Positions 6,265 through 39,307 of a DNA stretch of 64,000 nt are shown here, piece after piece. The notes beneath the pieces are model-generated. The model was not told where the DNA came from, did no database searches, and was given only the letters and a program-made list of their open reading frames with translations. Origin of the DNA: Candidatus Omnitrophota bacterium. Its GTDB lineage: Bacteria; Acidobacteriota; Aminicenantia; UBA2199. Location of the stretch: positions 42,633 to 106,632 of the forward strand of contig JBLMYT010000093.1 in the NCBI GenBank assembly GCA_050258455.1. The letters run 5' to 3'. Both the position numbers and the translations under genes were made by a program. Positions within the stretch are counted from its first letter, which is position 1. The number at the start of each line of letters is the position of its first letter.

Positions 6265-6271
6265 ACTAAGT

Positions 6272-8458: not shown

Positions 8459-8464
8459 CGGATA

Positions 8465-17701: not shown

Positions 17702-17773
17702 AGGCGGCGACCGGATTCGAACCGATGAATAACGATTTTGCAGACCGCTGCCTTACCACTTGGCTACGCCGCC
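17702..17773 (-). tRNA. tRNA-Cys(GCA), CCA not encoded
   Basis: Revcomp GGCGGCGTAGCCAAGTGGTAAGGCAGCGGTCTGCAAAATCGTTATTCATCGGTTCGAATCCGGTCGCCGCCT; anticodon GCA, TTCGAAT T-loop. Confidence 0.95.
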
Positions 17774-17780
17774 ACTCAAA

Positions 17781-17855
<75 letters not shown>

Positions 17856-26306: not shown

Positions 26307-27761
26307 CTATACCGATTCATTCATTTTGAGGTAGAGTCGTGAACCTTCCGGAATATCGGAAAAGTTTTGAATCGCATCGCCGGTTAATATCCCTTTCCCG
26401 GGGATCACGTAAACCGTATCGCGTCGGTTGTGGGCTTTACCGGCGATTCCCCACGGGGTTTGGCCTCGAACCGTTCCGATCATGAACGGTCCCTTATAGC
26501 CGATGATTAACGACGTTCCGTCCGGAATCGAATCCCAATCCGGGATTTGGTCTCCGGAGAGGATCCGGCCGTCGGATAGAAAGTAAATCGTCGACGGTTT
26601 GCAATACGCCGCGCCCGCAAAGCTCCAGGCTGTAAAGTCTTTGGTGATTAAGAACACAGGTCCCTTATCCTGCTCCGGATGCTGCGGCTCGTTGAGCAAG
26701 ACCCGGGTTCCGCGGGGAATATGGGCCCAGCCGATCGTCGGTTCGATCGCGTCGCCCCGGATTTCCCGTTGGTCGGGCAGCACATAGAGTGTTGTGGGGC
26801 TGTCGAAATCTTCGCCCGCGATGTTCCAGGCCGTGTTATTGGTCCCGATTATATTGGAGATTTTGCTTTCGTCCTGAACCAGTTTCGCATAGATGGTCGT
26901 GCCCTTTGGTTTACCCGTGCGTGTTTTGTTGGCAGCCAGGATCGGTTTTTCATCGGTTTCGTGGCCCTTGAATTTTTTATAAAACATGGCATAAATAAAC
27001 GGATCTCCGGCCAGGCGTCCGGTTTTTACATCCGGGTCATAGTGCCAGGAGTCGGTAAGGCCTGCTTTTTCTCGGTCGAAATTCAGGGCGCAGCGTTTGC
27101 GGCCTCGGTGACAGCGTTTAAACCAGATGTTGGGTTTTCCATAGGAAACCTGGCTGTGGGTCAATACATTTTTATCCGCGATGTCGTAGATGCGTTGAAG
27201 GATTTTCAGCAGTCGGGCAATTGCGTCGTATTGTTGAGGGGTGATCGTGTCGTAATGGTATCCCACCAGTTCGATGCTAACCGAATAGGAGCTGATATCT
27301 TCCAGGCCGTTCCACATGCTCAGACCGGCGTGGTCGGCCCGGCAGCGGTGGTTCAGGATCCGGTAGATTTTCCCGTCTCTGGAGATGGCATAATTGGCAT
27401 GGCCGCCGAAAGTTCGGTATTTTCCCACGTTTTTTCCTTCGGAGAGGGTGCGCAGGGTGCTGACCATTCCGGCTTCGGATGTATGAATAATGATGAAATT
27501 GGTTTTTGATCGGATGATTTTCACAAACTTTTTATTTAAGTGATCCTGATAATTGATAAAGGAGTCATTGGATTCGCTGGTTGGTTCATCCTCGGTTGGG
27601 GTTTCGCGGGGAAAAATGGGGCTGGTGAAATTCCAGAGAGCAAAGGCAATACAAATAACAACCCAACTCACATTACCCAGATGTCCCGCGTAGCGCGGGA
27701 GATGCCGCACGTTCATTCGACTCCTTTGTATTGAGAAAATATCAGAATGTAAAAGATCCAA
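26307..27761 (-). CDS. N-acetylmuramoyl-L-alanine amidase (Amidase_2) with three C-terminal repeats
   Basis: N-terminal hydrophobic segment, IIIHTSE, HAGLSMW, SIELVG, VLTHSQV; true start probably the ATG near 27716. Confidence 0.82.
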   Translation of the reverse strand: MDLLHSDIFSIQRSRMNVRHLPRYAGHLGNVSWVVICIAFALWNFTSPIFPRETPTEDEPTSESNDSFINYQDHLNKKFVKIIRSKTNFIIIHTSEAGMVSTLRTLSEGKNVGKYRTFGGHANYAISRDGKIYRILNHRCRADHAGLSMWNGLEDISSYSVSIELVGYHYDTITPQQYDAIARLLKILQRIYDIADKNVLTHSQVSYGKPNIWFKRCHRGRKRCALNFDREKAGLTDSWHYDPDVKTGRLAGDPFIYAMFYKKFKGHETDEKPILAANKTRTGKPKGTTIYAKLVQDESKISNIIGTNNTAWNIAGEDFDSPTTLYVLPDQREIRGDAIEPTIGWAHIPRGTRVLLNEPQHPEQDKGPVFLITKDFTAWSFAGAAYCKPSTIYFLSDGRILSGDQIPDWDSIPDGTSLIIGYKGPFMIGTVRGQTPWGIAGKAHNRRDTVYVIPGKGILTGDAIQNFSDIPEGSRLYLKMNESV

Positions 27762-27910
27762 AAAGATTATTATTTATACTAGCTTTGCAAAAAAGTCAAG
27801 TAAATTGATTTGATAACCGGGAGTTCTCTGAAGTTGGGCTCGCTCTCTCCGAAGTTGGTGATTCCCTGACGTTGATTGCGCCGGCTCTCCCGGTGGTTGC
27901 CTGTTTCCGT

Positions 27911-28426
27911 GTGACACGTTTGCGGTTTCCGGTCACATGATTGTTGGTTTCATGTCGCTGGTTTGCGATTTCCGGTCACATGATTGTTGGTTTCATGTAA
28001 CTGGTTTGCGATTTTGGGTCACATGATTGGTGGTTTCATGTCGCTGGTTTGCGATTTGCGGTCACATGATTGATGGTTTCATGTCACTGGTTTGCGATTT
28101 TGGGTCACATGATTGGTGATTTCATGTCACTGGTTTGCGGTTTTGGGTCACATGATTGGTGATTTCATGTCACTGGTTTGCGGTTTGCGGTCACATGATT
28201 GGTGATTTCATGTCACAGGTTTACGGTTTGCGGTCACATGATTGGTGATTTCATGTCACAGGTTTACGGTTTGCGGTCACATGATTGGTGATTTCATGTC
28301 ACAGGTTTGCGGTTTTCGGTCACATGATTGGTGATTTCAGGTCACTGGTTTACGGTTTCCGGTCACATGATTGGTGGTTTCATGTCACAGGTTTGCGGTT
28401 TTCGGTCACATGATTGGTGATTTCAT
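27911..28426. repeat. Tandem array of about 12 x 43-bp units, non-coding
   Basis: GGTCACATGATT recurs exactly every 43 bp from 27931 to 28404; consensus GGTCACATGATTGGTGATTTCATGTCACTGGTTTGCGGTTTGC; no unique spacers. Confidence 0.95.
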
Positions 28427-28427
28427 T

Positions 28428-28526
28428 GGGAGTGTCAATTATTTTGTGTAAATGGTTAAAAAAAGGGTACCAAAAATTTTTTGGTTTGGGTATTAAATGG
28501 CAGAGACGTTGCGTGCAACGTCTCTG
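28428..28526 (+). mobile_element. IS256-like end remnant plus REP-like palindrome
   Basis: GGGAGTGTCAATTATTTTGTGTAAAT at 28428, then CAGAGACGTTGCGTGCAACGTCTCTG at 28501-28526; same layout as 1909 and 5030. Confidence 0.55.
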
Positions 28527-28550
28527 ATATAAGATTAGAACCAAAAAATT

Positions 28551-28654
28551 ATGATCAATGCTTACCGGGATAAATAAGCCTTTGTAATTATTGTTTAACA
28601 AATGGGGTTAGTTTTTTTATTGCCAATCGTTGTAGAAGAATTGACCCCGCATTT
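28551..28654 (+). repeat. Direct repeat copy 1 (paralog 3' end plus GGGGT..ACCCC hairpin)
   Basis: Aligns with 30304-30407: AATAAGCC.TTGTAATTATTG...AATGGGGT.AGTTTT...GAAT.TGACCCCGC. Confidence 0.75.
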
Positions 28655-28745
28655 CTCAATTCCTCAGTTTCGAATGATTGGAATTTTTTATAAAGGCTAC
28701 AATAAAGGATGATCGATCCTAAGTGGATTGAATTGAACGAAAAAT

Positions 28746-28773
28746 TTGACTTTTTTTTAATAGTTCTTATAAT
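28746..28773 (+). promoter_or_regulatory. Sigma70 promoter
   Basis: TTGACT-16bp-TATAAT upstream of 28936; RBS AAGGAGGG at 28925. Confidence 0.55.
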
Positions 28774-28935
28774 TTATTTTGTAAAATAAGGGGGACTCTT
28801 GATATGACCGGATAGGGGATGGACATTGCTTTGGAATAAATTTCAGTAAAGGTATGATTATGATTACCAAGGTATTTATAGTAAGGAGGAGAAGATATCG
28901 CTTGTAAATAAAAATCATTAAATAAAGGAGGGAAA

Positions 28936-30330
28936 ATGAACAACTACAAAAACAACAGGAAAAGAACGTTTCTTTTCAAGACAAACCTTAATAAGTCAAA
29001 GATTATGGGAAGGGTGATGCTATTAGGCATTCTGGCATTACTTTTATTTTTCAATGTATCCGGCCTTAACGCGCAACTTTGTGTAAATCAAAGCGTCTAT
29101 AACTCATGTTCGTGGACCTGGTCTTACGCAGGTCCTTGCAGTTCCCAATATAACTGCCTTTCTTATGCACTCGGCATCACCAGTTCGTGGATTTGGCCCT
29201 GGGGAGGATGTCCTACCAGCAGTCAAGTAGATACTTATCTTGCCACACAAGGCTATTATACTACTGGCGATTTCCCTAAAATTATTTCTTATGGCTCTTC
29301 GTCTTCATGCATCGTACATTTCGGTAAAGTAACGAGCTCGACCACTATAACAGCCAAATGGGGTTCGTTAAACCTTTTGAATCATGGTTCCTGGAACCCG
29401 TATTATTCAGGGTCATGCTATGGAAGTATGCAATCGGTGTATTATCAAAGGGTAGTACCAATGTCTGTTTCAATTTCCGGTCCTAGCAAAGGGTATAATA
29501 CCGGAACCTATACCTGGTGCGCCAATACTTCAAACGGTACACCACCCTATACCTACAGTTGGGAATACAAATATGCTAGTTATTCTTATCAACCCTGGCC
29601 ATTTACAACCCAATGTATAACGGTTTCCTTACCTCTGGATTTTGATCTCTGGATTAAGGCAACGGTCACGGGAGCAGACGGAAAGAAAGTTTCGGCGGAA
29701 AAGTTTATTATAAACCTGGATGCCCTCGGATTAAAATTGGGGGCTACCCTGAATTCCAATCAAATATCTACCCATCTTTCAGACCTGTTAAATGAGGCTG
29801 AGGCGAAGGGGATCATTAGTTCGAATCCCTATGACTATATTAACAATGAATCCTTCCGAAAAATTGTTAAATTGGGACCTGAAGCATTGATGACCATAAG
29901 AAGTATGATCCGAGAGAGCGATGAAAATGGCCTTAAAGAATATATCCTTGCTATAGCCGCAGAAGAAATTGCCAAAACCGATTTGAAAGGAGACCATTTT
30001 GGATGGGAGAACGGAAAAAAATGGACTCAGCAATGGGATTTTTACATGAGATCGTTGTCCGGTAAAGTGGCAGAGATATTTAAATCCGGTATCCCAGTCA
30101 CAGAAAAAAATAAGGCCCTGGTTAAATTGGGTATCCCCGCCATTCCTTTAATCATCGACGAAATCGCTCGTGGAAATTCCCAATACAAAGTCGCAATTCA
30201 AGATTTACTCAAAGGATATCCTTCGCTAACAGGATTAAGGGCAGGAGAAGATGTGAAATCCTGGGAAACTAAAAATTCCAATAATATTAGGGTCTTAAGA
30301 GATTTAATTAATATTTACAGGAAAAAATAA
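28936..30330 (+). CDS. Secreted protein: papain-like (DUF7689-type) domain, PKD/Ig-like domain and helical C-terminal domain
   Basis: Signal peptide (...SGLNA/QL), YNCLSYALG..WIWP, VHFGK..AKWG, then GTPPYTYSW Ig-like segment and repeated VKLG..A motifs. Confidence 0.6.
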   Translation: MNNYKNNRKRTFLFKTNLNKSKIMGRVMLLGILALLLFFNVSGLNAQLCVNQSVYNSCSWTWSYAGPCSSQYNCLSYALGITSSWIWPWGGCPTSSQVDTYLATQGYYTTGDFPKIISYGSSSSCIVHFGKVTSSTTITAKWGSLNLLNHGSWNPYYSGSCYGSMQSVYYQRVVPMSVSISGPSKGYNTGTYTWCANTSNGTPPYTYSWEYKYASYSYQPWPFTTQCITVSLPLDFDLWIKATVTGADGKKVSAEKFIINLDALGLKLGATLNSNQISTHLSDLLNEAEAKGIISSNPYDYINNESFRKIVKLGPEALMTIRSMIRESDENGLKEYILAIAAEEIAKTDLKGDHFGWENGKKWTQQWDFYMRSLSGKVAEIFKSGIPVTEKNKALVKLGIPAIPLIIDEIARGNSQYKVAIQDLLKGYPSLTGLRAGEDVKSWETKNSNNIRVLRDLINIYRKK

Positions 30331-30407
30331 GCCCTTGTAATTATTGGCTCATACAATGGGGTCAGTTTTCTTAACCACTCTTGGTGAGAGAATCTGACCC
30401 CGCTTTT
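30304..30407 (+). repeat. Direct repeat copy 2, likely terminator hairpin
   Basis: GGGGTCAG...CTGACCCCGCTTTT after the stop codon; homologous to 28551-28654. Confidence 0.75.
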
Positions 30408-30455
30408 GGCTCGTTGAATTCTGCGGCAAAATGAGGCATAGATCCACACGAATCG

Positions 30456-31616
30456 TCATGCACCTCTACCTTTTCCCCAATCGATTTTATAGACTTCAAG
30501 CATCTGCGAACCGCTCTCTTGATTGTATAGATAATATAACCGGTTGTTGACCACCCGTATGACGGCTTTTGGATAAGGAGGGGCTTTTAAAACAAATCGT
30601 GAAATAAAAATTCCGTCAGAGTTAAAAACATCCACCATATAACCGGAATTGTTTTTATCTCTTTCATAAGTCATCACATACAACCGACCCTCCGGGTCGG
30701 TTGAAAATTGATGAAACGCAGGCAATGCATCCGGAAATACCAATTTATTCTTAACCAATTGATATTTTTTACCTAAGGTTTCAATAAAAGCTTTTTTGTA
30801 ATCTTCGGAAGGGGAAACCGGTTCGAATTTCTTTTGAATTCTCTTGAGCAATTTACCTGAAAAGTTATAGACGCTAAGATCATAGCCTCTTTCCTGGTTA
30901 CCGGTGATGATCGTATTGCCGGCAATATCCACGCCCATCGTATTGTATATCCCCAGGAGTTTTGAACCCAGAGGGCTAAGCATTTCCATTTCGTCCAGCG
31001 TTTTAATTTCATTAAAACCGGCATCATATAATTGCAATAAAATTTTTATATTACCGGTTTTCGAAGTCGGAAATTCAAATTTTTTAAAAACAAAGTTCCC
31101 ATTCTCCTTATCCAGGATAATCCCTTCGGACGCGGAAGGGGTGAATCGAATATCTTTAATAAATTTTCCATTGGTTTGAAAGAAAGAAAATTTCCGATTT
31201 AGAGGATCCGTGATGACAATTTGGTTGGCGCGATTCAGACGGATTCTCAGTGGAGAACGAAATTCTCCCGGGCCCTGTCCTTCTCTTCCGAACTCGGATA
31301 GGAATTCCCCTTTTTTATTTAAAACGACAATCTTTTGATATTTCACATCGAGTAAATAAATATTACCGGTTTTATCCGCATCCAAATCTCCGATAATTGC
31401 AATCGTTTCCTCAAACTTGTCCAGATCGATCGCATTTTCTGCCTTTAAAGTCACTTTTAATGGCAGCCCATTCACCTTGTAAGGTTGGAGGTGATTGACA
31501 ATCACTTCGACCCCGTTTTCGATTCGTTTTTCGATTTTTTCAACCTGGGCGCCATCAAGAAAAAAGGACATAAACGCAAGTATCAACGTAAGACCGATGA
31601 GTATTCTCATCTTCAC
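30456..31616 (-). CDS. Secreted 6-bladed beta-propeller (NHL-repeat) protein
   Basis: Signal peptide, GNIYLLD, FGREGQGPGEF, D.EGRLYV, DVFNSDG. Confidence 0.85.
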   Translation of the reverse strand: MKMRILIGLTLILAFMSFFLDGAQVEKIEKRIENGVEVIVNHLQPYKVNGLPLKVTLKAENAIDLDKFEETIAIIGDLDADKTGNIYLLDVKYQKIVVLNKKGEFLSEFGREGQGPGEFRSPLRIRLNRANQIVITDPLNRKFSFFQTNGKFIKDIRFTPSASEGIILDKENGNFVFKKFEFPTSKTGNIKILLQLYDAGFNEIKTLDEMEMLSPLGSKLLGIYNTMGVDIAGNTIITGNQERGYDLSVYNFSGKLLKRIQKKFEPVSPSEDYKKAFIETLGKKYQLVKNKLVFPDALPAFHQFSTDPEGRLYVMTYERDKNNSGYMVDVFNSDGIFISRFVLKAPPYPKAVIRVVNNRLYYLYNQESGSQMLEVYKIDWGKGRGA

Positions 31617-32347
31617 CTCCCAATCTCTTTTATATTAAAAAGTTTTATTCCCGCAGTAAAGAGCAGGAACACATAAATGCAATATTTCAGGAAGAAAATA
31701 AATGAAAGCGGCTTTGCCGCAAATAAGTTTTTCACAATAGCCACACTCTTTATCGGGTTGATAAAGTCAACCAGTTGTTTCAAAAAATAAGGTAAGCTCA
31801 AGCCCGGTAAATTGGGTAAGAAAACAATGATAAATATAAGGAAAACCATGACCGAAACATTCATTTCTCTGGGAGTCCACACCGAAATGAATGTCGCAGC
31901 ACCAATGATGGATATTTGGTCTAAGAGTAAGACGCCTAAAATGGGAAGCAAAGAGAATAAGGGAAAGGATTGCTTGTGATAAAGTGTTGTTATCAATCCG
32001 ATTCCGAGTAAAAAAAGAAGAAGCAATAGGGTACAGAAAAATAGTGTGGCCACGTATTTACTCAAATAAATGGAGCTCTTTTTTACGGGTTTTGCCAGAA
32101 TAATATTCATAAAACCGCTGCTGATTTCTTTTCCCAAAATACCGGCACTCAATATCAGGCAAATAAAGATGTTGAAAATAAAGACCTTGTTAAAAAGGAA
32201 TCTTTCAAATGATTCAAGGTGGGCATAATATCGGGTGAAAACAAAAAGAGCAGTAAAGAGGATAAATGCACCCAGGTAAAACGCCACTCTCGACAGGTCT
32301 CTAAAGAACTGAATAATATGAAATTTGATGATGGTTTTTGAAATCAT
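31613..32347 (-). CDS. ABC-2 type transporter permease
   Basis: About six TM helices, EISSGFMNIILAKPVKKSSIYLSKY motif; 4-nt overlaps with both neighbours. Confidence 0.88.
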   Translation of the reverse strand: MISKTIIKFHIIQFFRDLSRVAFYLGAFILFTALFVFTRYYAHLESFERFLFNKVFIFNIFICLILSAGILGKEISSGFMNIILAKPVKKSSIYLSKYVATLFFCTLLLLLFLLGIGLITTLYHKQSFPLFSLLPILGVLLLDQISIIGAATFISVWTPREMNVSVMVFLIFIIVFLPNLPGLSLPYFLKQLVDFINPIKSVAIVKNLFAAKPLSFIFFLKYCIYVFLLFTAGIKLFNIKEIGR

Positions 32348-33075
32348 TGTTGGTCTCCGGCATGCACATGTTTTAAGAACAAGTCTTCGAGGCTTTCTTG
32401 TTTGTTTTGCATATCAAAGGTATGTTGAATTTTACCCTGTTTTAAAAATCCAACTGTATCACAAACTTTTTCCAATTCGGAAAGATAATGAGAACACATG
32501 ATGATCGTTCTTCCCTGTTTCTTTAAGTCGTATAAGATGTTTCTGAAATCGATAATTCCAAGAGGATCAAGGCCTGTTGTGGGTTCGTCTAAAACTACCA
32601 ATCTCGGATTGCCAAGAAGTGCCTGGGCTAAAAACAACCGCTGGATCATACCTTTTGAATAAGTGGTGATTTTTCTTTTTATATTGTCTTCGAGCCCAAC
32701 CTTTATCGTGATCTGATTGATTTCATTTTTCAGATCTTGAGCATTCAGACCGGAGAGAGCCCCCATATACTCAAGAAATTCTTTTCCGTTGAGGTAATTT
32801 AAGTATATGGGATCTTCAGGCAGGTATCCCATCCATTTCTTGGTTTCGATATGGCGGTTATCTTTCCCAAATATGTTGATGATACCGGAATCGGGTTTAA
32901 GAAGCCCGATGATCATTTTGATTGTTGTTGTTTTTCCTGCGCCATTCGGACCGACCAGGCCGAATATCTTCCCTTCTTCGACAGAAAACGATAGTTCATC
33001 TACTGCTTTTTTCGTATCTTTTCCGTCTCTATATGCTTTTGTAAGATTATTGAGTTCAATTTGTTCTATTTTCAT
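32344..33075 (-). CDS. ABC transporter ATP-binding protein
   Basis: GPNGAGKTT, YSKGM signature, LDEPTTGLDP, SH; start taken at ATG 33075 (ORF track begins 33090). Confidence 0.93.
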   Translation of the reverse strand: MKIEQIELNNLTKAYRDGKDTKKAVDELSFSVEEGKIFGLVGPNGAGKTTTIKMIIGLLKPDSGIINIFGKDNRHIETKKWMGYLPEDPIYLNYLNGKEFLEYMGALSGLNAQDLKNEINQITIKVGLEDNIKRKITTYSKGMIQRLFLAQALLGNPRLVVLDEPTTGLDPLGIIDFRNILYDLKKQGRTIIMCSHYLSELEKVCDTVGFLKQGKIQHTFDMQNKQESLEDLFLKHVHAGDQQ

Positions 33076-33080
33076 GAAAA

Positions 33081-33109
33081 AGTGTAACATATTTTGTTTT
33101 TTCTTTCAA
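33081..33109 (-). promoter_or_regulatory. Sigma70 promoter for the ABC/propeller operon (leaderless)
   Basis: TTGAAA-17bp-TACACT with extended TG, ending 5 nt before ATG 33075. Confidence 0.55.
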
Positions 33110-33199
33110 GAAATCAATAGGAAAATTATGGAAAATAATTATTACGGTTTGATTATTATGAATAATTCTTTTAATGATCAAAAAATTAAGATACTGACG

Positions 33200-33244
33200 T
33201 TGACATTTATAGAAAAATGTGATATCCTCTTTATGCTTAAGGAG
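33200..33244 (+). promoter_or_regulatory. Sigma70 promoter and RBS of the RiPP precursor
   Basis: TTGACA (33200)-17bp-TATCCT with extended TG; AAGGAG at 33239-33244. Confidence 0.7.
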
Positions 33245-33249
33245 TATTT

Positions 33250-33438
33250 ATGAAAAAAATAACAAAAGAATCAATAATATCGATCGCTGGTCAGGATGCC
33301 ATTAAGGCAGGTGTCAGAACTTGCGCTGATGCTTGTTCTGATTATTGTGTTGCTTCTTGCCCGGAATCAGGTTCGCTTAATGGTGATACCGCTCTTCAAT
33401 GGGGATTCGGCGGCGTATGGGGACCCGATAAAGTTTAA
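33250..33438 (+). CDS. Putative RiPP precursor peptide (CX3CX3CX3C core)
   Basis: 62 aa with an MKKITK leader, CADACSDYCVASC and a WGFGGVWGP tail; own promoter and RBS; 63 nt upstream of the rSAM genes. Confidence 0.85.
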   Translation: MKKITKESIISIAGQDAIKAGVRTCADACSDYCVASCPESGSLNGDTALQWGFGGVWGPDKV

Positions 33439-33501
33439 TTATTTCATCTAAAAAACTATATCCGGTTTTAGAGAATCGTTATATCTACATATTTACCAAA
33501 A

Positions 33502-35001
33502 ATGTATAAATGGGAAGTCACATTCAAGGATGAGAATAATAACGATTATATATATGATTATTGGAATAATGCGATTTATCATTCAGGTGAGTGTTTTCAG
33601 AATGTCCGAAAATTAAAAGGCCAATATGATATAGATACCATTGTGTCTCTATTACCTGATTTTTCGAGGGAAGAAGTGCTTCTAAATTATAAACGCATTC
33701 AAAAAATTGAAGAAACCAATAAACTTATAACTAAATTCAAAACAGAAGCACTGGAGAAACCGAAAAAATACTTGCCCAGATTGACTCACAAAACCTTCGA
33801 AAAAATGATTTCGCTGACTAAACAATTAACTTTAGAAGTATGTCAATCTTGTAATCAGCGATGCGAGTATTGTATTTATTCGGGAAAATATGAATTTCAG
33901 AGAACTCACCCTGAAGGTAATAAGGTAATGTCATTTGATATTGCACGTAAATCAATCGATTATTTTATCTCCCTTATCAATTCAAAGAAAAGGATATTAA
34001 AATATGGCAATGCAGCGATCGGTTTCTATGGCGGGGAACCATTGCTTGCCTTCGAATTAATCAAAGAGTGCGTTGATTATATAAAAAAGAAAGAAACAAA
34101 AGAAAAAATAATTTACACGATCACAACAAATGGAACACGGTTAAATGAAGAAATGATCAATTTTTTCATTCAAAATGATTTCTGGATACTTTTGAGCCTC
34201 GATGGTCCTCAAGAAGAACACGATAAATTCAGGGTATTTAAAAATAAAAGAGGCACCTTCGAAAAAACCATGAAAGGGATTTCAATGCTAAAAAAATACC
34301 AAGATTATTATGAGAAAAAAGTATCCATTTCCTCGACTTATTGTATGGCCCATGATTTACTTTCCATAGAAGAATTCTTTGAGGAGAATTTTAAAGATAA
34401 AAATATACTTGCCTCAGCGATAAGATCAACCCGAACTGATTTTTATCGGAAAGTAAAGCCCGATCCGAATTTCCTTGAAAAGTACAAAAGACTATTTCGA
34501 AAATATTGCGATGCTGTTGAAAATAACAAACCATTATCCAGTTATATTAACGGTTTTTTTTCAAAAAATCTAGCCAAAGTTCACGATAGACCGATGATTC
34601 GTTTGGATAACCGTTTAAACGGAATACTTAAAATATTCAATATATGCGCAAATTGCTTTCCCGGTGAAAAAATATTTGTGGATACGGACGGGGTATTCTT
34701 TATATGTGAAAGGGTTAATCAGTTTTTTTCTATTGGGGATTACCAAAATGGTATTAATTTTAAAAAGGTAAAAAAAATTGTAGAATCATATTCACAATTT
34801 GCTTTAAAACACTGTCTTTTTTGCGAGGCAAGACGATTTTGCAATTTGTGTATCTCCCATAATGGTGTGAAAGGAAATTTCGAATATAATGATACCTGTG
34901 AGAATGCCCGAATGATTCTTCGGGACACTTTGGGCGCGTATATCACTTTATATCAAAGAAATAAGAATGCGTTACTTAATAATTTAAGAAAAGTATCATG
35001 A
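33502..35001 (+). CDS. Radical SAM/SPASM peptide maturase (Cys-rich peptide maturase-like)
   Basis: N-terminal RRE-like region, QLTLEV..CNQRCEYC, FYGGEPLL, TTNG, SLDGP..HD..R, SPASM CFPG...CERV...CLFC..RFCNLC. Confidence 0.9.
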   Translation: MYKWEVTFKDENNNDYIYDYWNNAIYHSGECFQNVRKLKGQYDIDTIVSLLPDFSREEVLLNYKRIQKIEETNKLITKFKTEALEKPKKYLPRLTHKTFEKMISLTKQLTLEVCQSCNQRCEYCIYSGKYEFQRTHPEGNKVMSFDIARKSIDYFISLINSKKRILKYGNAAIGFYGGEPLLAFELIKECVDYIKKKETKEKIIYTITTNGTRLNEEMINFFIQNDFWILLSLDGPQEEHDKFRVFKNKRGTFEKTMKGISMLKKYQDYYEKKVSISSTYCMAHDLLSIEEFFEENFKDKNILASAIRSTRTDFYRKVKPDPNFLEKYKRLFRKYCDAVENNKPLSSYINGFFSKNLAKVHDRPMIRLDNRLNGILKIFNICANCFPGEKIFVDTDGVFFICERVNQFFSIGDYQNGINFKKVKKIVESYSQFALKHCLFCEARRFCNLCISHNGVKGNFEYNDTCENARMILRDTLGAYITLYQRNKNALLNNLRKVS

Positions 35002-36296
35002 TGCGAGATGAATTGAGTCTTAATTATTTTTTTTTGAACGATGATTGTATATTAATTAAGGGCGCATTAAATGGGGCTATTTATGATTTGAAAAGTGGGC
35101 ATGTTTATTCGTTAACTCCTATAGAAAAATCAATATTGAATTACTGCGAAGAATCCAAATGCCTTAAAACCATTGCAAAATTGTTGAACGTGCCCAAGGG
35201 AGATATACTTAAAATTCTTCAGGAAATAAAAAGGAATGGATTGGGACATTTTTATAAAAATAGCGTTTTTATCGATAAGAATACCGATTACAATTTAAAA
35301 TCTCTATCGCATAAACCGGTAAAATTGGATACGCTTGTCATTGAGCTTCATCGACGATGCGATTTGAATTGTCTTTTCTGCGATAATGAAGAAGCAAACA
35401 GCCCACGGTATGCTTACTGCGGATGCAGAAAAGAAAGAAATCCAAGATGCTTAACTATTGAAAAAATAAAAAGCGTCATCCGAGAAGGAAGGGAATTTAA
35501 TTTGAATTCAATCTACTTTATTGGGGGAGACCCTTTTTTATTTAAAGAAAAGTTTTTCAAATTACTCGAATATTGTCGAAAGCGTGTAAATGGGATATGG
35601 GTTCATACGCATGCGGGAAATCTTAACGATGAAGGCATCAATCTGTTGAATCAACTCGAAATAAATCTTGATATCCCCGTGTATTCGCATGACGAGAAAC
35701 TTCATGATAATATAACCGGTACGCCATATCATTATAAAAAATTGATTTCAGTAATAGAGACGTTAGTGGGAAAAGGAATAAATTTTAATGTTATTCATTA
35801 TATTGGTGATTTCAATTCAACGCATCTTTATAAGACCCAGGAATTTTTCAAAAACTTGGGGTGCTGTTCTGTGACTCAAAAATTTATTTATCCGAAAAAT
35901 AAGATGGCAGCAGATAATCCATTTCTTCATATTTATAATAACAGTAAAAAAAATTTTCCAAGGATAAATAAAGATATTTTTTTCCGTAATAAAACTGGAA
36001 ATATGTGTTTGTCCCGGAAATTGGCAATTTCACGAACAGGAGAGATTGCCCCTTGTCATATTATAGCGGATCGAAGTCTTGGTAATGTTAAAGAAGTAAG
36101 TATAAATGAAGTTCTCAGAATGAAAGAAATCGACTCTTACTGGGAATTATCCAAGGATAAGTTAGAAGTTTGTAATGAATGTGAATATCGCTATCTGTGT
36201 ATTGATTGCCCCATTCTGGAACACCGGGCAGATGGAAAGTTTTATCAAAATTTTTATTGTCGCTATAATCCACAAAGAGCAATGTTTGAGGAATGA
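34998..36296 (+). CDS. Second radical SAM/SPASM peptide maturase
   Basis: YFFLNDDCILIKG...IYDL RRE-like N-terminus, CDLNCLFC, GGDP, SPASM SKDKLEVCNECEYRYLCIDC...CRYNP; ATGA overlap with the upstream gene. Confidence 0.87.
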   Translation: MMRDELSLNYFFLNDDCILIKGALNGAIYDLKSGHVYSLTPIEKSILNYCEESKCLKTIAKLLNVPKGDILKILQEIKRNGLGHFYKNSVFIDKNTDYNLKSLSHKPVKLDTLVIELHRRCDLNCLFCDNEEANSPRYAYCGCRKERNPRCLTIEKIKSVIREGREFNLNSIYFIGGDPFLFKEKFFKLLEYCRKRVNGIWVHTHAGNLNDEGINLLNQLEINLDIPVYSHDEKLHDNITGTPYHYKKLISVIETLVGKGINFNVIHYIGDFNSTHLYKTQEFFKNLGCCSVTQKFIYPKNKMAADNPFLHIYNNSKKNFPRINKDIFFRNKTGNMCLSRKLAISRTGEIAPCHIIADRSLGNVKEVSINEVLRMKEIDSYWELSKDKLEVCNECEYRYLCIDCPILEHRADGKFYQNFYCRYNPQRAMFEE

Positions 36297-36301
36297 TAAC
36301 C

Positions 36302-36319
36302 CTAATCGATAACGGTCAT
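36302..36319 (-). pseudogene. Truncated VapC (PIN) remnant, MTVID*
   Basis: ATG overlaps the antitoxin stop (ATGA); MxVID matches the PIN first-strand motif, then TAG. Confidence 0.45.
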
Positions 36320-36522
36320 CTATCTTTTTCTTCTCTTTCCGGATCCGTGTCCATTCCGGATAAAACTCCGAATAAATCGTCTATTTTTTTTTCAGGAATC
36401 AGTTCTATTCTATCCCCGATAGTCATTAATATGAATCTTTCACCGGGTTTCATATTTTGTTTTTCCCGTATTTCTTTAGGGATGGATATTTGATAACTCG
36501 TCGAAAGATTTACTATAGGTAT
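36316..36522 (-). CDS. AbrB/MazE/SpoVT-type antitoxin (VapB-like), apparent ATA start
   Basis: LSTSYQISIPKEIRE...KPGE...IELIP...G.DTD..REEKDR; GAGGAGGT RBS precedes ATA at 36522. Confidence 0.7.
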   Translation of the reverse strand: MPIVNLSTSYQISIPKEIREKQNMKPGERFILMTIGDRIELIPEKKIDDLFGVLSGMDTDPEREEKDR

Positions 36523-36650
36523 TTTACCTCCTCTGCGTGCCCGGTGCACTTATATTAATGATAGTATAGGTTAATTTCGTATTCAAGCTGTTTGCATGAA
36601 TACCAGCAATTCGCATTCTGTCCCAACACGAAAGCCCATATCGAACACAC

Positions 36651-36758
36651 GGGCAGACACGCAGGTCTGCCCCTACAGGAAAATAAGATCAATTATTGGT
36701 TATATCGCGCGGGACCGCTCGGAATTTTCCCTTAGGGGCGCACCCGTGTGTGCGCCCC
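36651..36758. repeat. Two oppositely oriented GTAG-type REP-like palindromes
   Basis: GGGCAGACACGCAGGTCTGCCCCTAC (36651-36676) and TAGGGGCGCACCCGTGTGTGCGCCCC (36733-36758). Confidence 0.7.
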
Positions 36759-36970
36759 CATTCTATTCGGATGGTCCGAGAATTGACTCATTTTTTCAAT
36801 GATTTAAATCCAGATATTTTATTTCGATATTCAGTAACTGACTGAGTTCTTTTACTTTTTTGGAAGAGATGGGGACAGAATGCAAACTGCTGTTTTTCAA
36901 AATACCCGGTTTTAAAAAATCCCAAAATGGTATATCATATTAAGATAAACTTTTTTCATTGAGGTAAATA

Positions 36971-39307
36971 ATGAAACGTCTCCTGCTTATCCTGCTCGTG
37001 GGTATGTTTTTAATGACCACGAATGTGTTCACCATAAGCACCGCAAAAGATTATACCAATTTTTATAAAGGCATCACCTATATCATCCTCGACGATAAAC
37101 CAAATGCGGAAAAATACCTTGACCAATTCTTCAAGGATTTTCCCGATCCGCAACTGAGCGGCGCTTTCTCAAACCTGATCAACACCAACAGCTTCGAGGT
37201 CACCAAAGAATTTAACCGTTACCTGGATATGAATCACCGATCCCCACTCGCCCTGATGGGCATCGCTCTGTCCGCTTCAAAATTGGAATCCCCGGGCGCA
37301 ATCGAAAACCTGGAACGCGCCCAACGCCTGGACGAATCCTTCTCCATCCTGTACATCGGCCTGGGCATGGAATACGTGAAACAAAAAGATTACCCCAAAG
37401 CCGAATCCTACTTCACCCGCGCCATGCGCTATTCCAAAATTCCGGAATATAAACTCTTTTACGCCAAACTCTTCCTTCGAAAAAATGAACCGGCCAAAGC
37501 CCTTGACCTTCTCAAACCCGAAGCCGAAAAACAACCCTACCATTTTTATTTTAATTTCTACACTGCCAAAGCCCTTTACCGACTCCATCAACTGGACCCC
37601 ATGGGCAAATTTATCACGGCCGCGGTCAAGGCATGGCCAACTAACCCCGACGCCCAACTCCTGATGGCCAAATACCTGACCGGTAAAGGCCAATTTCGCC
37701 CCGCCCGAGATATCCTGAAAAAACTCCAATTCAAAGATTATAACGACGATTATTACCGCATCTATGCCCGGGTCTTATTCGAACTCAAAGACCCCAATGC
37801 CAAACGCTACATGGATAAAGTTTACTCGTATAACCCATGGGATGGCGTAATTAACCGCTTATTGGGACTGGTCGAGGAAGGAAAACCAACCGAAAAAGGA
37901 AACGTCCAGAACCGAATCACCCGCGCCTCAATCTGCGGCACCCCCATCGCTCAACTGCAACGCTTGTTCCCCTCCACCTACCGATTTCCCGTATACCCAT
38001 CCTTACCCTTTTTTGAAATGAACGCCATCAAATGGTTAACCCCCCATCTCCTGGCGGTCGGGGGAATCCGAACCAGCGGAGACACCGGAAAACTCGTTGT
38101 GATCAATGCCGATAATTTAAATATCATCCATTCCATGGATTACAAAGGAAAACTAAAAGACATCTTTCCCTCTCCGGATGGGAGCAAACTTATTTTTTAT
38201 ACGCATTTTGATAAAGACGATAAATTTTATATTTATTCGATCGAAATGTCGGGAAAAAACGTCCGGTCCAACCTCCTTACCCCCAATGGCCAATCCATGC
38301 CGGCCCTCTCGGTCGGATTTGACGGAACGGGCAATCTGGCCTATATCACGGATGACCGGTTAACCAAATTAACCAGCGAATCCCCGTTTTCATTGGTATC
38401 CGAAGGAGTGAGAAAACGGGTATATGCGCCGTCGTTTCCTTTTAATCTCTACATGTACAATTTCAAAACGCAATTTACCAGTTTTGTCAGAGATACCGGA
38501 AACTTCCCCAATATTCCCATCGATTGCATCAAAAAATATTATTGGGTATCCCGGGCCGCCCGCAGCCAAACCGATATTCAAAACCTGATTAAAAAGGGGG
38601 AAAACCTGGATATCACGGCTTCGGAAATGGTCCGGATATTTTTCTCCAATGACCGGCACTCATTTATTATCTATCTGTCGGACCTCAAAAACGCATTCCA
38701 GGGAATCGTCTACGATCATCATGCCAACCGAACATTTAAAGTCAATCAAAATATGTTTCTCTCGCAATTCGCGGAACTCCACCTGCTGGATTTTGATCCG
38801 GAACGACACGAACTCCTGGTGCTGACCAAAGATGCATCCCGCCAGTTGATTCGATACAATTATAAAAATTATTCCTTTACCCCGATCGCCGACAAGGTCC
38901 GTCAATGCGTGATCGATCGAACCGAAAACCGCCTCCTGATTCTTCGGGAACGGCGCCGGATGCAGGAGGGGATGGAAACCACGCTGTTAACGGTGTCGCT
39001 TTCCCCCTATATCCGAAAGACGATCGAGGCGCGGCGCGATTTGAAACAAATTCTTTTTGTCAACGAACAGGGCGAGGTTTACTTTTCCACGTTTCGCGGC
39101 GAAACCGTTAAAATGGATGAACAGGGAACCTTCGTTTCTTGCGGACCGTCGTTTGACGGTTGTCGGCATGCGGTATCACCCTCCAAAACCAAAACCGCTG
39201 CTTTTATCAACGGGCGTCTGGTCATCGTGGATGGACCGGTCATGATCCCGGCAAAGGAACTACCCAAAACCAACTCTCGCAATCGGAAAGGATCTCATGG
39301 GCATTGA
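36971..39307 (+). CDS. Secreted TPR-repeat protein with a C-terminal beta-propeller-like region
   Basis: Signal peptide, helical TPR patterns, SPDGSKL (PD40-like). Confidence 0.7.
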   Translation: MKRLLLILLVGMFLMTTNVFTISTAKDYTNFYKGITYIILDDKPNAEKYLDQFFKDFPDPQLSGAFSNLINTNSFEVTKEFNRYLDMNHRSPLALMGIALSASKLESPGAIENLERAQRLDESFSILYIGLGMEYVKQKDYPKAESYFTRAMRYSKIPEYKLFYAKLFLRKNEPAKALDLLKPEAEKQPYHFYFNFYTAKALYRLHQLDPMGKFITAAVKAWPTNPDAQLLMAKYLTGKGQFRPARDILKKLQFKDYNDDYYRIYARVLFELKDPNAKRYMDKVYSYNPWDGVINRLLGLVEEGKPTEKGNVQNRITRASICGTPIAQLQRLFPSTYRFPVYPSLPFFEMNAIKWLTPHLLAVGGIRTSGDTGKLVVINADNLNIIHSMDYKGKLKDIFPSPDGSKLIFYTHFDKDDKFYIYSIEMSGKNVRSNLLTPNGQSMPALSVGFDGTGNLAYITDDRLTKLTSESPFSLVSEGVRKRVYAPSFPFNLYMYNFKTQFTSFVRDTGNFPNIPIDCIKKYYWVSRAARSQTDIQNLIKKGENLDITASEMVRIFFSNDRHSFIIYLSDLKNAFQGIVYDHHANRTFKVNQNMFLSQFAELHLLDFDPERHELLVLTKDASRQLIRYNYKNYSFTPIADKVRQCVIDRTENRLLILRERRRMQEGMETTLLTVSLSPYIRKTIEARRDLKQILFVNEQGEVYFSTFRGETVKMDEQGTFVSCGPSFDGCRHAVSPSKTKTAAFINGRLVIVDGPVMIPAKELPKTNSRNRKGSHGH

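What the first reader, a model, noticed from the sequence alone, without database searches (positions are those of the whole stretch)
30456..36296. Candidate new RiPP system: CX3C-ladder precursor with two distinct rSAM/SPASM maturases and a dedicated exporter
Seen: a 62-aa ORF with its own promoter and RBS, followed by two translationally coupled radical SAM proteins. Both keep CxxxCxxC, SPASM cysteines and RRE-like N-termini. An ABC ATPase-permease-propeller operon is divergent from it, and all lie in an AT-rich island. Known: rSAM/SPASM enzymes beside Cys-rich peptides make sactipeptide or ranthipeptide thioethers, and others make aromatic C-C crosslinks or epimerise residues. Inference: this is a self-contained cluster from an apparently uncultured-type lineage, and its precursor matches no characterised RiPP I recognise. 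The two maturases may carry out two different chemistries.
Basis: partly seen in the sequence, partly recalled or inferred. Interest (0 to 1): 0.9.

Follow-up and report, generated by a model that had tools for sequence, protein, structure and literature searches.

The report
Cys-ladder peptide with paired radical-SAM maturases
A small, probably horizontally acquired gene cluster encodes a cysteine-ladder peptide and two different radical-SAM enzymes that most likely staple it into a cross-linked hairpin, making it an uncharacterised relative of known bacterial peptide antibiotics rather than a wholly new kind of system.

Summary
At 33250-36296 a 62-aa ORF with Cys25/29/33/37 precedes two overlapping (ATGA) RRE-rSAM-SPASM genes. 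A divergent, overlapping ABC-ATPase/ABC-2 permease/NHL-propeller operon lies at 30456-33090. All sit in a 36% GC island; the rest of the window is 48% GC.

The peptide is a real gene. A full HMMER search found three 61-66-aa relatives with the same invariant Cys ladder. One appears to share a contig with relatives of both enzymes.

No enzyme reaches any NCBIfam cut-off. The same tandem, with Cys-ladder ORFs upstream, recurs in 21 of 80 related metagenome loci.

Best reading: a thioether-stapled hairpin RiPP (sacti-/ranthipeptide kind). Its pattern mirrors thuricin Z/huazacin: a CX3C ladder, acceptor candidates at i+4 spacing, two distant rSAMs, and an ABC transporter with a permease. A complex prediction (0.81 against 0.00 for controls) and natural fusions suggest the two enzymes work as a heterodimer, as TrnC/TrnD do, rather than performing two separate chemistries.

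The ABC-2/propeller module looks at least as much like self-protection as export. No C39 leader peptidase was found in the genome. The chemistry is untested.

Verdict: a new variant of a known kind, of moderate interest.

The parts
33200..33244 (+). Promoter-like site (TTGACA-17-TATCCT, TG upstream) and AAGGAG ribosome-binding site of the precursor gene
   Evidence: These are consensus matches only. Promoter-like sites in the region are not clearly above shuffles.
33250..33438 (+). Precursor peptide, 62 aa. The leader is about residues 1-21, ending I-K-A-G. The core is about residues 22-62, with Cys25/29/33/37 (CX3C x3).
   Evidence: ORF. No Pfam or NCBIfam family. Three homologous peptides were found (E 7.5e-10 to 3.4e-7). 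Alignment A4 has invariant R23 C25 D27 C29 S30 D31 C33 C37 G41 L43 T47 A48 W51 G55.
33502..35001 (+). rSAM1: RRE-like N-terminus, radical SAM core (C117/121/124) and a 7-Cys SPASM domain. A distant CcpM/RumMC/PapB/CteB relative.
   Evidence: TIGR04068 257.6 bits against a cut-off of 500. PF04055. CteB 5wgg, E 2.2e-32, from residue 16; invariant Cys in 25 sequences. The start codon is supported by homologue N-termini.
34998..36296 (+). rSAM2: RRE, radical SAM core (C121/125/128) and a 7-Cys SPASM domain. Its start overlaps the rSAM1 stop (ATGA).
   Evidence: TIGR04193 84.8 bits against 175, C-terminal part only; TIGR04150 42.4 against 250. PF04055 and PF13186; invariant Cys in 28 sequences; model pLDDT 89.0; Foldseek hits to SuiB, CteB, SkfB and TigE.
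32344..33090 (-). ABC transporter ATPase, divergent from the precursor gene
   Evidence: PF00005, 102 bits. GldA 193.7, lantibiotic-protection ATPase 191.0, DrrA 184.4, all below their cut-offs.
31613..32347 (-). ABC-2 type permease (244 aa), overlapping the ATPase gene (ATGA)
   Evidence: weak ABC2_membrane_2/4/3 hits, all below gathering scores; overlap.
30456..31616 (-). Membrane-anchored or secreted six-bladed NHL-type beta-propeller (DUF5128), overlapping the permease gene (GTGA)
   Evidence: PF17170, 43.1 bits; model pLDDT 84.4, N-terminal helix 2-20; NHL domains, BF0058 (4raa), PAL (3fvz) and Vgb (2z2n) are among the fold matches; relatives lie next to rSAM1-like genes in 14 other loci.
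36316..36549 (-). AbrB/SpoVT-type small DNA-binding protein, convergent with rSAM2. It has island-like composition and may be a regulator.
   Evidence: TIGR01439, 43.7 bits against 28.3. PF04014. GC3 0.295. No toxin partner was seen.
28936..30330 (+). Secreted 464-aa DUF7689 protein at the left end of the AT-rich island. It is a weak candidate for an extracytoplasmic Cys peptidase. Its link to the cluster is unproven.
   Evidence: PF24738, 65.5 bits; structural lead to NlpC/P60, TM 0.43 and 0.41 (a lead only). No relatives in the other loci.

Best explanation
This is a horizontally acquired RiPP cluster of the radical-SAM/SPASM thioether kind (sactipeptide or ranthipeptide).

Proposed pathway:
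1. The 62-aa precursor carries a leader of about 21 residues ending in an AG (GG-type) motif. Its core of about 40 residues has four Cys at i, i+4, i+8 and i+12.
2. The two translationally coupled RRE-rSAM-SPASM proteins act together, probably as a heterodimer. They convert the four thiols into thioether cross-links.
3. The most likely product has four nested rings that pin the Cys arm to the conserved L43/T47/W51/G55 arm. This gives a hairpin like thuricin Z/huazacin.
4. The divergent ABC-2 transporter with its NHL propeller then exports the peptide, protects the producer against it, or both.
5. The leader is removed by a protease that is not a C39 domain.

Shown here: the gene content, the motifs, the conservation of peptide and pair, and the predicted folds.

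Inferred: thioether chemistry, ring topology, the heterodimer, and the roles of the transporter and propeller.
For: Precursor is a real, conserved gene:
- Three relatives at E 7.5e-10, 1.2e-7 and 3.4e-7 among 1.84 billion representatives.
- All four Cys and ten other positions are invariant. All leaders end I-[KHN]-[AG]-G.

Co-conservation with the enzymes:
- P0132 (peptide), P0013 (rSAM1 relative, 49%) and P0006 (rSAM2 relative, 46%) are each on one Logan contig of 136992 nt.
- P0012 and P0004 share a contig length of 8086 nt. P0014 and P0005 share 14506 nt.

Enzyme class:
- rSAM1's best families are thioether or Cys-rich-peptide maturases: CcpM 257.6 bits, RumMC 178.1, lachnocin 167.7, TIGR04148 162.9, PapB 149.4.
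- Its closest solved structure is the thioether synthase CteB.
- Both enzymes keep all 3+7 cluster Cys.

Wider pattern:
- 21 of 80 metagenome loci carry the same rSAM1-like plus full rSAM2-like tandem.
- 14 of those 21 have a Cys-ladder ORF within 800 nt upstream on the same strand. The opposite-strand control gives 2 of 21.
- L091 has the whole gene set: ladder peptides, pair, ABC exporter, DUF5128 propeller.

Hairpin:
- In all four peptides the invariant L/T/W/G positions keep a spacing of 4, mirroring the Cys ladder (read).
- Thuricin Z links C16-D26, C12-T30, C8-Y34 and C4-H38. Its cluster has two distant rSAMs, a permease and ABC transporters (PMC8172795, passages).

Heterodimer:
- Complex prediction scored 0.81, against 0.00 for the best of 3 controls. 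That mark was reached by 58 of 80 solved complexes and 2 of 110 mismatched pairs. These counts hold only roughly because my own alignments were used.
- The runs agree in at least 92% of contacts, and the partner's pLDDT is at least 84.
- The genes overlap as ATGA.
- Natural fusions exist. P0065 (760 aa) carries an rSAM1-like part followed by rSAM2-like N-terminal and SPASM segments. The window's own genome has a 768-aa rSAM+SPASM ORF matching both enzymes.
- TrnC/TrnD form a tight complex in thuricin CD biosynthesis (PMC12093266, abstract).
Against: - No chemistry was measured. Nothing here distinguishes C-alpha from C-beta or C-gamma thioethers, or thioethers from other radical cross-links.
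- All curated family cut-offs are missed by wide margins.
- The invariant D27, S30 and D31 between the Cys could be the acceptors instead, as in PapB/QhpD-type Cys-Asp links. That would give small local rings and not a hairpin.
- An i+4 periodicity could simply reflect two amphipathic helices.
- Predicted interface residues are no better conserved than average: 0.413 against 0.449 in A6, and 0.395 against 0.396 in A5.
- ThzC and ThzD are reported to act independently (PMC8172795), so two rSAMs need not form a complex.
The DNA was not seen.
- No leader peptidase was identified. PF03412 was not found in the 93.9%-complete genome.
Confidence: 0.6

Rival explanations
1. This is the first reader's idea of two independent enzymes with two chemistries. 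rSAM1 makes the Cys thioethers. rSAM2 installs something else, such as a cross-link on the invariant Trp51 or the aromatic C-terminal arm, or an epimerisation.
For: - The enzymes are very different: 29% identity over 93 aa, E 8e-5.
- rSAM2 keeps a complete rSAM cluster and SPASM Cys in all 28 family members. It is therefore probably catalytically active, unlike the pseudo-rSAM TIGR04150.
- Its top fold match is SuiB, a Lys-Trp cross-linker.
- W51 is invariant, and aromatic residues are frequent at positions 51-57.
Against: - The complex prediction passes.
- Fusions in which the rSAM2-like part has lost its rSAM core exist. Many relatives have only a SPASM-only second protein. This argues for an accessory or partner role.
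- In the TrnC/TrnD pair both enzymes are active, but only TrnC's radical chemistry is essential (PMC12093266, abstract).
- Foldseek scores for SuiB, CteB and SkfB are practically equal.
Confidence: 0.2
2. The product is a ranthipeptide, not a sactipeptide. The Cys sulfurs link to side-chain carbons of the invariant Asp27/Asp31 (and D/N/E46), as in PapB/freyrasin or QhpD. This gives small rings and not a nested hairpin.
For: - D27, S30 and D31 are invariant, and position 46 is D/N/D/E in the four peptides.
- rSAM1 scores 149.4 bits on PapB, 109.1 on QhpD and 113.1 on the SCIFF maturase.
- The closest solved structure is CteB, whose Cys-Thr links in CteA are reported as gamma-thioethers (PMC10352776, passage).
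- PapB links Cys to Asp or Glu (PMC9413430, abstract in the listing).
Against: - There are four Cys but only two invariant Asp within the ladder.
- The sactisynthase model RumMC scores higher (178.1) than PapB.
- The mirrored i+4 conservation of L43/T47/W51/G55 is left unexplained.
Confidence: 0.25
3. The divergent ABC-2/propeller operon is a self-protection (immunity) module, or is unrelated to the peptide, and not a dedicated exporter. Export and leader removal are done by proteins encoded elsewhere.
For: - The ATPase scores 191.0 bits on the lantibiotic-protection ABC model and 184.4 on DrrA.
- The permease is of the ABC-2 type with no peptidase domain.
- The related locus L091 uses a different exporter, a fused ABC_membrane+ABC_tran type, yet keeps the propeller.
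- From my own recall, LanFEG-LanI immunity systems pair an ABC-2 transporter with a surface lipoprotein.
Against: - The operon shares the island's composition.
- It shares the 160-nt divergent promoter region with the precursor gene.
- ABC ATPases and DUF5128 propellers recur beside rSAM1-like genes.
- No other exporter was seen in the island.
Confidence: 0.4
4. The cluster does not make a cross-linked secreted peptide. The small ORF is a metal- or disulfide-binding peptide, or a chance ORF, and the rSAM enzymes act on another substrate.
For: No experimental data exist. The peptide has no curated family.
Against: - Peptide relatives with invariant Cys are significant against 1.84 billion proteins.
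- It has a strong AAGGAG site.
- Both enzymes carry RRE-type peptide-binding domains.
- Ladder ORFs are enriched upstream of the tandem: 14 of 21, against 2 of 21 in the control.
Confidence: 0.05

Closest known systems
Thuricin Z / huazacin (thz cluster, Bacillus thuringiensis), a type I nested-hairpin sactipeptide
   Same: - Four Cys at CX3C spacing.
- Acceptor candidates at spacing 4 on the opposite arm.
- Two very distant rSAM enzymes in one cluster.
- A permease plus ABC transporter.
(PMC8172795, passages; window features.)
   Different: - No sequence relationship was shown. Thz sequences were not on hand.
- The loop is shorter here: 5 residues between C37 and L43, against 9.
- The leader is AG/GG-type.
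- ThzC and ThzD are reported to act independently, whereas a complex is predicted here.
- An NHL propeller is present here.
- The producer is a MAG-like assembly of an unnamed lineage, not a Bacillus.
Thuricin CD maturases TrnC/TrnD
   Same: Two rSAM enzymes encoded together that form a tight complex and act jointly on the precursor (PMC12093266, abstract and introduction). A heterodimer is predicted here.
   Different: - Thuricin CD has two precursors with three Cys each. Here one precursor with four Cys was found.
- The complex here is a prediction only.
GG-Bacteroidales cassette: TIGR04149 precursor, TIGR04148 rSAM and TIGR04150 pseudo-rSAM. It is uncharacterised chemically as far as I recall. 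The cassette is described in PMC4573289 (passages).
   Same: - A GG-type leader peptide followed by a pair of rSAM-family proteins.
- rSAM1 hits TIGR04148 and rSAM2 hits TIGR04150.
   Different: - Both scores are far below their cut-offs: 162.9 against 300, and 42.4 against 250.
- The second protein here keeps CX3CX2C and all SPASM Cys, so it is not 'pseudo'.
- The precursor does not hit TIGR04149 at E up to 10.
- There is no C39-ABC exporter or HlyD here.
CcpM (TIGR04068), Cys-rich peptide radical SAM maturase of Clostridia
   Same: It is the best-scoring curated family for rSAM1 (257.6 bits over residues 15-483). Its target peptides are Cys-rich.
   Different: - The score is about half the cut-off of 500.
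- The CcpM system's companion proteins (TIGR04066 and TIGR04069, PMC4573289) were not among the hits listed for the eight proteins scanned.
CteB (SCIFF ranthipeptide maturase, PDB 5wgg) and PapB (freyrasin)
   Same: - The RRE + rSAM + SPASM architecture.
- CteB is the closest solved structure to rSAM1 (E 2.2e-32).
- CteB has the best TM-score for the rSAM2 model (0.60).
   Different: - SCIFF and PapB family cut-offs are not met: 113.1 against 425, and 149.4 against 340.
- The precursor is neither a SCIFF peptide nor a CX3D repeat.
- Those systems use a single maturase.
Grasp-with-SPASM system (TIGR04193 SPASM-domain maturase with an ATP-grasp ligase)
   Same: The SPASM domain of rSAM2 is most like TIGR04193 (84.8 bits, residues 312-431). 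SPASM-only relatives sit beside rSAM1-like genes in related genomes.
   Different: - The score is below the cut-off of 175.
- rSAM2 has a full rSAM core.
- No ATP-grasp family was among the Pfam hits of the eight proteins scanned.

Membership tests
rSAM/SPASM thioether RiPPs (sactipeptides and ranthipeptides) | Short precursor with a leader and a Cys-containing core, encoded beside the maturase | tested here: met
   62-aa ORF 63 nt upstream of rSAM1, with four invariant Cys.
rSAM/SPASM thioether RiPPs (sactipeptides and ranthipeptides) | Maturase with CX3CX2C and a 7-Cys SPASM domain | tested here: met
   Both enzymes qualify. The Cys are invariant in 25 and 28 family members.
rSAM/SPASM thioether RiPPs (sactipeptides and ranthipeptides) | RRE (PqqD-like) leader-binding domain | tested here: met
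   rSAM2: the AF2 model has an N-terminal sheet plus three helices and aligns full-length to SuiB and CteB. rSAM1: the profile aligns to CteB from residue 16. RRE-Finder itself was not available.
rSAM/SPASM thioether RiPPs (sactipeptides and ranthipeptides) | Cys sulfur linked to C-alpha (sacti) or to a side-chain carbon (ranthi) of an acceptor residue | not testable with these tools
   This needs MS/MS, desulfurisation labelling or NMR.
Thuricin Z/huazacin-type nested hairpin | CX3C ladder of four Cys, with four acceptors at matching spacing on the other arm | tested here: inconclusive
   The ladder is present. Invariant L43/T47/W51/G55 keep a spacing of 4 in all four peptides. Whether they are acceptors is unknown.
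Thuricin Z/huazacin-type nested hairpin | Sequence homology to ThzA/ThzC/ThzD | not tested
TIGR04068 CcpM | Score at or above the curated cut-off of 500 bits | tested here: not met
   257.6 bits.
NF035951 RumMC sactisynthase | Score at or above 720 bits | tested here: not met
   178.1 bits.
NF047865 PapB ranthipeptide maturase | Score at or above 340 bits | tested here: not met
   149.4 bits.
TIGR04115 CXXX-repeat target rSAM maturase | Score at or above 350 bits | tested here: not met
   93.5 bits, although the precursor has Cys at every fourth residue.
GG-Bacteroidales cassette (TIGR04148/04149/04150) | TIGR04148 at or above 300 bits, TIGR04150 at or above 250 bits, and a precursor matching TIGR04149 | tested here: not met
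   162.9 and 42.4 bits. The precursor has no NCBIfam hit at E up to 10.
GG-Bacteroidales cassette (TIGR04148/04149/04150) | Second protein is a pseudo-rSAM lacking the cluster Cys (definition recalled from the family name) | tested here: not met
   rSAM2 has C121/C125/C128, invariant in 28 sequences.
TIGR04193 grasp-with-SPASM maturase | Score at or above 175 bits and an ATP-grasp partner | tested here: not met
   84.8 bits, on the C-terminal 120 residues only. No ATP-grasp family was among the Pfam hits of the eight proteins scanned.
PCAT-exported GG-leader peptides | C39 peptidase-ABC exporter in the cluster or genome | tested here: not met
   PF03412 was not found in the window's genome, which is 93.92% complete. 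The control search rang in 7 of 14 known genomes.

The most novel reading that the evidence does not exclude
The two RRE-rSAM-SPASM proteins form an obligate heterodimer with two active radical sites. In the model, a conserved linker of rSAM2 (residues 88-95) sits on the RRE sheet of rSAM1, leaving rSAM2's RRE to hold the leader. The pair would install two kinds of cross-link on one core: a Cys thioether ladder plus a link involving the invariant Trp51 arm. That would give a scaffold not yet described. The membrane-anchored NHL propeller that travels with such clusters would be a new extracytoplasmic processing or immunity component, replacing the missing C39 peptidase.
Probability: 0.12. Interest if true: 0.75.

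Novelty: new variant of a known kind. Interest (0 to 1): 0.5.

Why it matters
If the reading is right, this locus is one of only four known members of a new precursor family. It also represents a much larger tandem-maturase class, found in 21 of the 80 related metagenome loci examined, that no NCBIfam model names at its cut-off. My four literature searches found no description of it.

It would give a tractable test case of three genes of about 3 kb for three questions:
- Do paired rSAM/SPASM enzymes generally work as heterodimers? So far this has been shown for TrnC/TrnD.
- What do the degenerate SPASM-only and pseudo-rSAM partners of the Bacteroidales cassettes do?
- What is the role of DUF5128 NHL propellers beside such clusters?

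Nested-hairpin sactipeptides are narrow-spectrum membrane-active antibiotics. A stable four-ring peptide from an uncultured lineage therefore has some discovery value.

It is not a new kind of biology. Thousands of sacti-/ranthipeptide clusters have already been mapped: 3421 in PMC10288494 (passage).

Tried and rejected
Searches and checks that led nowhere:
- **Earlier findings.** As a result the ENA/Logan contigs with the close homologues could not be read.
- **Word-index search with the precursor.** It found only the precursor itself, 1 of 1 candidate. The full HMMER search was needed.
- **Fifth hit.** P0134 is a 1703-aa repeat protein without a Cys ladder. I regard it as unrelated.
- **Genome-contig scan with the rSAM2 alignment.** It returned 7 loci at 20-23% identity and no close relative.
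- **Metagenome-contig scan with the rSAM1 alignment.** It found 533 relatives and kept the best 80. None was above 38% identity.
- **Precursor profile across the class.** Among 301 genomes it found only the window's own gene, plus three weak hits at E 0.002-0.008. One of these is a CX3C-ladder peptide upstream of an rSAM1-like gene in G002.
- **Clean insertion test.** Relatives of the two flanking genes lie on different contigs in all 5 same-genus genomes, so nothing can be concluded.
- **Interface conservation.** The predicted heterodimer interface shows no enrichment.
- **Lipoproteins in the paralogous clusters.** Pfam scan of three lipoproteins of about 370-380 aa from the genome's own paralogous clusters gave no family. 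I cannot call them propellers.
- **Rfam scan of 27000-37500.** It returned only a sub-threshold miRNA match, 27.4 bits against a gathering score of 90, which I take as chance.
- **The look-up of sequencing runs.** None was listed, and no RNA holder was listed.
- **Literature searches**. None turned up a description of this precursor family, of the rSAM1/rSAM2 tandem as such, or of DUF5128 with rSAM clusters.
- **Papers not seen.** Haft & Basu 2011 (PMC3133131) is not held, so what I say of the TIGR families' definitions is partly recalled. Supplementary tables of PMC10288494 and PMC8939145, which I could not see, may list related clusters.

Considered and rejected: an ATP-grasp (graspetide) system. 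No ATP-grasp family was among the Pfam hits.

Full report
**What is there**

- The 62-aa ORF at 33250-33438 reads MKKITKESIISIAGQDAIKAGVRTCADACSDYCVASCPESGSLNGDTALQWGFGGVWGPDKV. Its only Cys are at 25, 29, 33 and 37.
- It has an AAGGAG site 5 nt upstream. It also has a TTGACA-17-TATCCT promoter-like site. This is a consensus match only: 40 sites in the region against 31.9 +/- 5.3 in shuffles.
- Sixty-three nt downstream starts a 499-aa gene (rSAM1, 33502-35001).
- Its TGA stop overlaps the ATG of a 432-aa gene (rSAM2, 34998-36296).
- Divergent from the peptide gene, and each overlapping the next by 4 nt, are three genes:
  - an ABC ATPase (32344-33090);
  - a 244-aa ABC-2-like permease (31613-32347);
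  - a 386-aa DUF5128 propeller (30456-31616).
- The stretch 28547-36970 is 36.2% GC, against 48.2% for the rest of the window. GC3 is about 0.30 in the rSAM genes and 0.57-0.60 in the flanking genes.
- A small AbrB/SpoVT-type gene (36316-36549) shares the island's composition. At the left end so does a secreted DUF7689 protein (28936-30330).

**The enzymes**

- Both have PF04055. rSAM2 also has PF13186.
- rSAM1 carries C117/C121/C124 and seven SPASM Cys. rSAM2 carries C121/C125/C128 and seven SPASM Cys.
- All ten Cys are invariant in alignments of 25 (A6) and 28 (A5) family members.
- rSAM1's best curated families are CcpM (257.6 bits, cut-off 500), RumMC (178.1/720), lachnocin rSAM (167.7/550), TIGR04148 (162.9/300) and PapB (149.4/340).
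- rSAM2's best are TIGR04193 (84.8/175, C-terminal 120 residues only) and, weakly, TIGR04150 (42.4/250). None reaches its cut-off.
- The closest solved structure to rSAM1 by sequence is CteB (5wgg, E 2.2e-32). The alignment starts at residue 16, so it includes the N-terminal peptide-binding domain.
- rSAM2 is only weakly like SkfB by sequence (E 4.2e-7).
- An AlphaFold model of rSAM2 built on 28 sequences (pLDDT 89.0, pTM 0.85) shows an N-terminal sheet plus three helices. It aligns over about 450 columns to SuiB, CteB, SkfB and TigE.
- The two enzymes share only 29% identity over 93 residues (E 8e-5).

**Is the small ORF a gene?**

- It matches no Pfam or NCBIfam family.
- The word-index search found only the ORF itself.
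- A full HMMER search of 1.84 billion representatives found three peptides of 61-66 aa: P0131, P0132 and P0133, at E 7.5e-10, 1.2e-7 and 3.4e-7, with 49-54% identity. It also found one unrelated repeat protein.
- In alignment A4 the invariant positions are M1 K3 T5 Q15 I18 G21 R23 C25 D27 C29 S30 D31 C33 C37 G41 L43 T47 A48 W51 G55.
- All four leaders end I-[KHN]-[AG]-G just before the conserved R-x-C. This suggests a double-glycine-type cleavage site after residue 21.

**Co-conservation with the enzymes**

- Close relatives of rSAM1 are P0012-P0015, at 46-56% identity.
- Close relatives of rSAM2 are P0003-P0007, at 42-50% identity.
- They exist only in ENA, Logan or NCBI metagenome assemblies.
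- Exact look-up puts P0132 (peptide), P0013 and P0006 each on a single contig of 136992 nt. P0012 and P0004 are each on one of 8086 nt. P0014 and P0005 are each on one of 14506 nt.
- P0015 is named by NCBI as coming from a Nitrososphaerota archaeon MAG.
- Within the window's own lineage the cluster is not shared:
  - In 40 related genomes the best rSAM1 match is 34% identical.
  - The only full-length rSAM2 relative above 100 bits is 30% identical and sits in a different context.
  - The peptide profile finds nothing convincing in 300 other genomes of the class.
- Together with the composition, this points to horizontal acquisition.
- A clean insertion could not be shown, because the flanking genes lie on different contigs in the five same-genus assemblies.

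**The wider class**

- Among the 80 best metagenome loci recovered with the rSAM1 profile (all at or below 38% identity), 21 carry a full-length rSAM2-like gene directly downstream.
- In the 20 of these whose second ORF is complete, CX3CX2C is present.
- Fourteen of the 21 have a small ORF with a Cys ladder within 800 nt upstream on the same strand. The opposite strand, as control, gives 2 of 21.
- Ladder spacings vary: CXC, CX2C and CX3C.
- Scanned examples also miss all NCBIfam cut-offs.
- Relatives of the propeller occur in 14 other loci, and ABC ATPases in many.
- Locus L091 holds the full set:
  - several ladder peptides;
  - the enzyme pair;
  - an ABC exporter of the fused ABC_membrane type;
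  - a DUF5128 propeller.
- The window's own genome has further clusters that pair an rSAM with a SPASM-only protein, next to Cys-rich AG-leader peptides. It also has a 768-aa fusion of the two parts.

**How it probably works**

- The class of rSAM1's nearest relatives, the RRE domains and the invariant Cys make Cys-derived thioether cross-linking the most likely chemistry. This is an inference.
- In all four peptides the invariant L, T, W and G positions (43/47/51/55 in the window) keep a spacing of 4 that mirrors the Cys ladder. This holds even in P0133, where the loop is shorter.
- That is the geometry of thuricin Z/huazacin, which links C16-D26, C12-T30, C8-Y34 and C4-H38. Its cluster also has two very distant rSAMs, a permease and ABC transporters (PMC8172795, passages).
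- I therefore propose four nested rings forming a hairpin.
- The main alternative is Cys-Asp links to the invariant D27/D31, as in ranthipeptides. It cannot be excluded.

**The pair**

- A complex prediction with both alignments gave a score of 0.81, against 0.00 for the best of 3 controls.
  - That mark was reached by 58 of 80 solved complexes and 2 of 110 mismatched pairs. These counts hold only roughly because my own alignments were used.
  - The runs agree in at least 92% of contacts, and the partner's pLDDT is at least 84.
  - The model supports binding but does not show it.
- In the model the N-terminal domain of rSAM1 (residues 10-27, 55-61) touches residues 88-108 of rSAM2.
- Interface residues are not better conserved than average.
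- Independent hints are the ATGA overlap and the natural fusions:
  - P0065: residues 470-491 match the start of rSAM2, and residues 651-754 match its SPASM domain at 36% identity, E 2e-19.
  - The genome's own 768-aa ORF.
- There is also a precedent. [quoted passage not shown]
- Against this, ThzC and ThzD are reported to act independently.

**Transport and processing**

- The ATPase scores about equally on GldA, lantibiotic-protection and DrrA models, all below their cut-offs.
- The permease is of the ABC-2 type, with weak hits below gathering scores.
- The propeller model (pLDDT 84.4) has an N-terminal helix and a six-bladed NHL fold. Its fold neighbours include NHL domains, the exported B. 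fragilis protein BF0058, peptidyl-hydroxyglycine lyase and virginiamycin B lyase. None of these assigns a function.
- No C39 peptidase domain was found in the 93.9%-complete genome, so the leader protease is unknown.
- The DUF7689 protein has a weak structural lead to NlpC/P60 (TM 0.43). It is not found in related loci.
- I consider export and self-protection about equally likely for the ABC-2/propeller operon.

**Verdict**

- The finding is real, and it is a good genome-mining lead.
- It belongs to a known kind, the rSAM/SPASM thioether RiPPs with paired maturases.
- Its pattern has a characterised counterpart in thuricin Z.
- What is new:
  - the precursor family, with four members;
  - an uncurated but widespread tandem of two complete RRE-rSAM-SPASM enzymes, with a predicted heterodimer;
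  - the recurrent NHL propeller.
- Novelty: a new variant of a known kind. Interest: 0.5.

Noticed in passing
window 27918-28426: A non-coding tandem array of 11.8 copies of a 43-nt unit (92% matches) sits at the left edge of the AT-rich island. Related units occur on at least 10 other contigs of the same genome. Its function is unknown.
   Followed up: partly
window 28554-28616 and 30307-30369: A 63-nt imperfect direct repeat (71%) brackets the DUF7689 gene (D11).
   Followed up: no
window 36597-36624 / 36872-36899; 36735-36758: A 28-nt inverted repeat (86% complementary, 247 nt apart) and a GC-rich terminator-like hairpin lie at the right edge of the island.
   Followed up: no
window 28936-30330: A secreted 464-aa DUF7689 protein carries a Cys-rich N-terminal domain. 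The Atlas model gives a weak structural lead to NlpC/P60 papain-like hydrolases (TM 0.43 and 0.41). It may be a peptidase or a cell-wall hydrolase.
   Followed up: partly
G000 contigs C123 (7000-17000, 27000-34761), C74 (37884-40193), C71, C58: The same genome carries several other clusters with an rSAM, a SPASM-only protein of about 300 aa, repeated lipoproteins of about 380 aa without a Pfam family, and Cys-rich peptides with AG-type leaders. One 768-aa ORF fuses the rSAM and SPASM parts.
   Followed up: partly
L115 (G002:C178:2151-2267): A same-genus genome encodes a GG-leader peptide with a CX3CX3CX3C ladder just upstream of an rSAM1-like gene. It is weakly similar to the window's precursor family (E 0.002).
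   Followed up: partly
L023 (G015:C4) 5934-9464: The only full-length rSAM2 relative in related genomes (30% identity) stands without an rSAM1 partner. Next to it are a 677-aa fused ABC-2 permease/ATPase-like gene and two paralogous secreted proteins of about 225 aa.
   Followed up: no
P0015 (NCBI MEM2929159.1): A 46%-identical rSAM1 relative is labelled as coming from a Nitrososphaerota archaeon MAG. This suggests either transfer between domains or a binning error.
   Followed up: no
window 17701-17855: Adjacent tRNA-Cys(GCA) and tRNA-Gly(GCC) genes lie on the minus strand, about 10 kb from the island. No link to it was seen.
   Followed up: no
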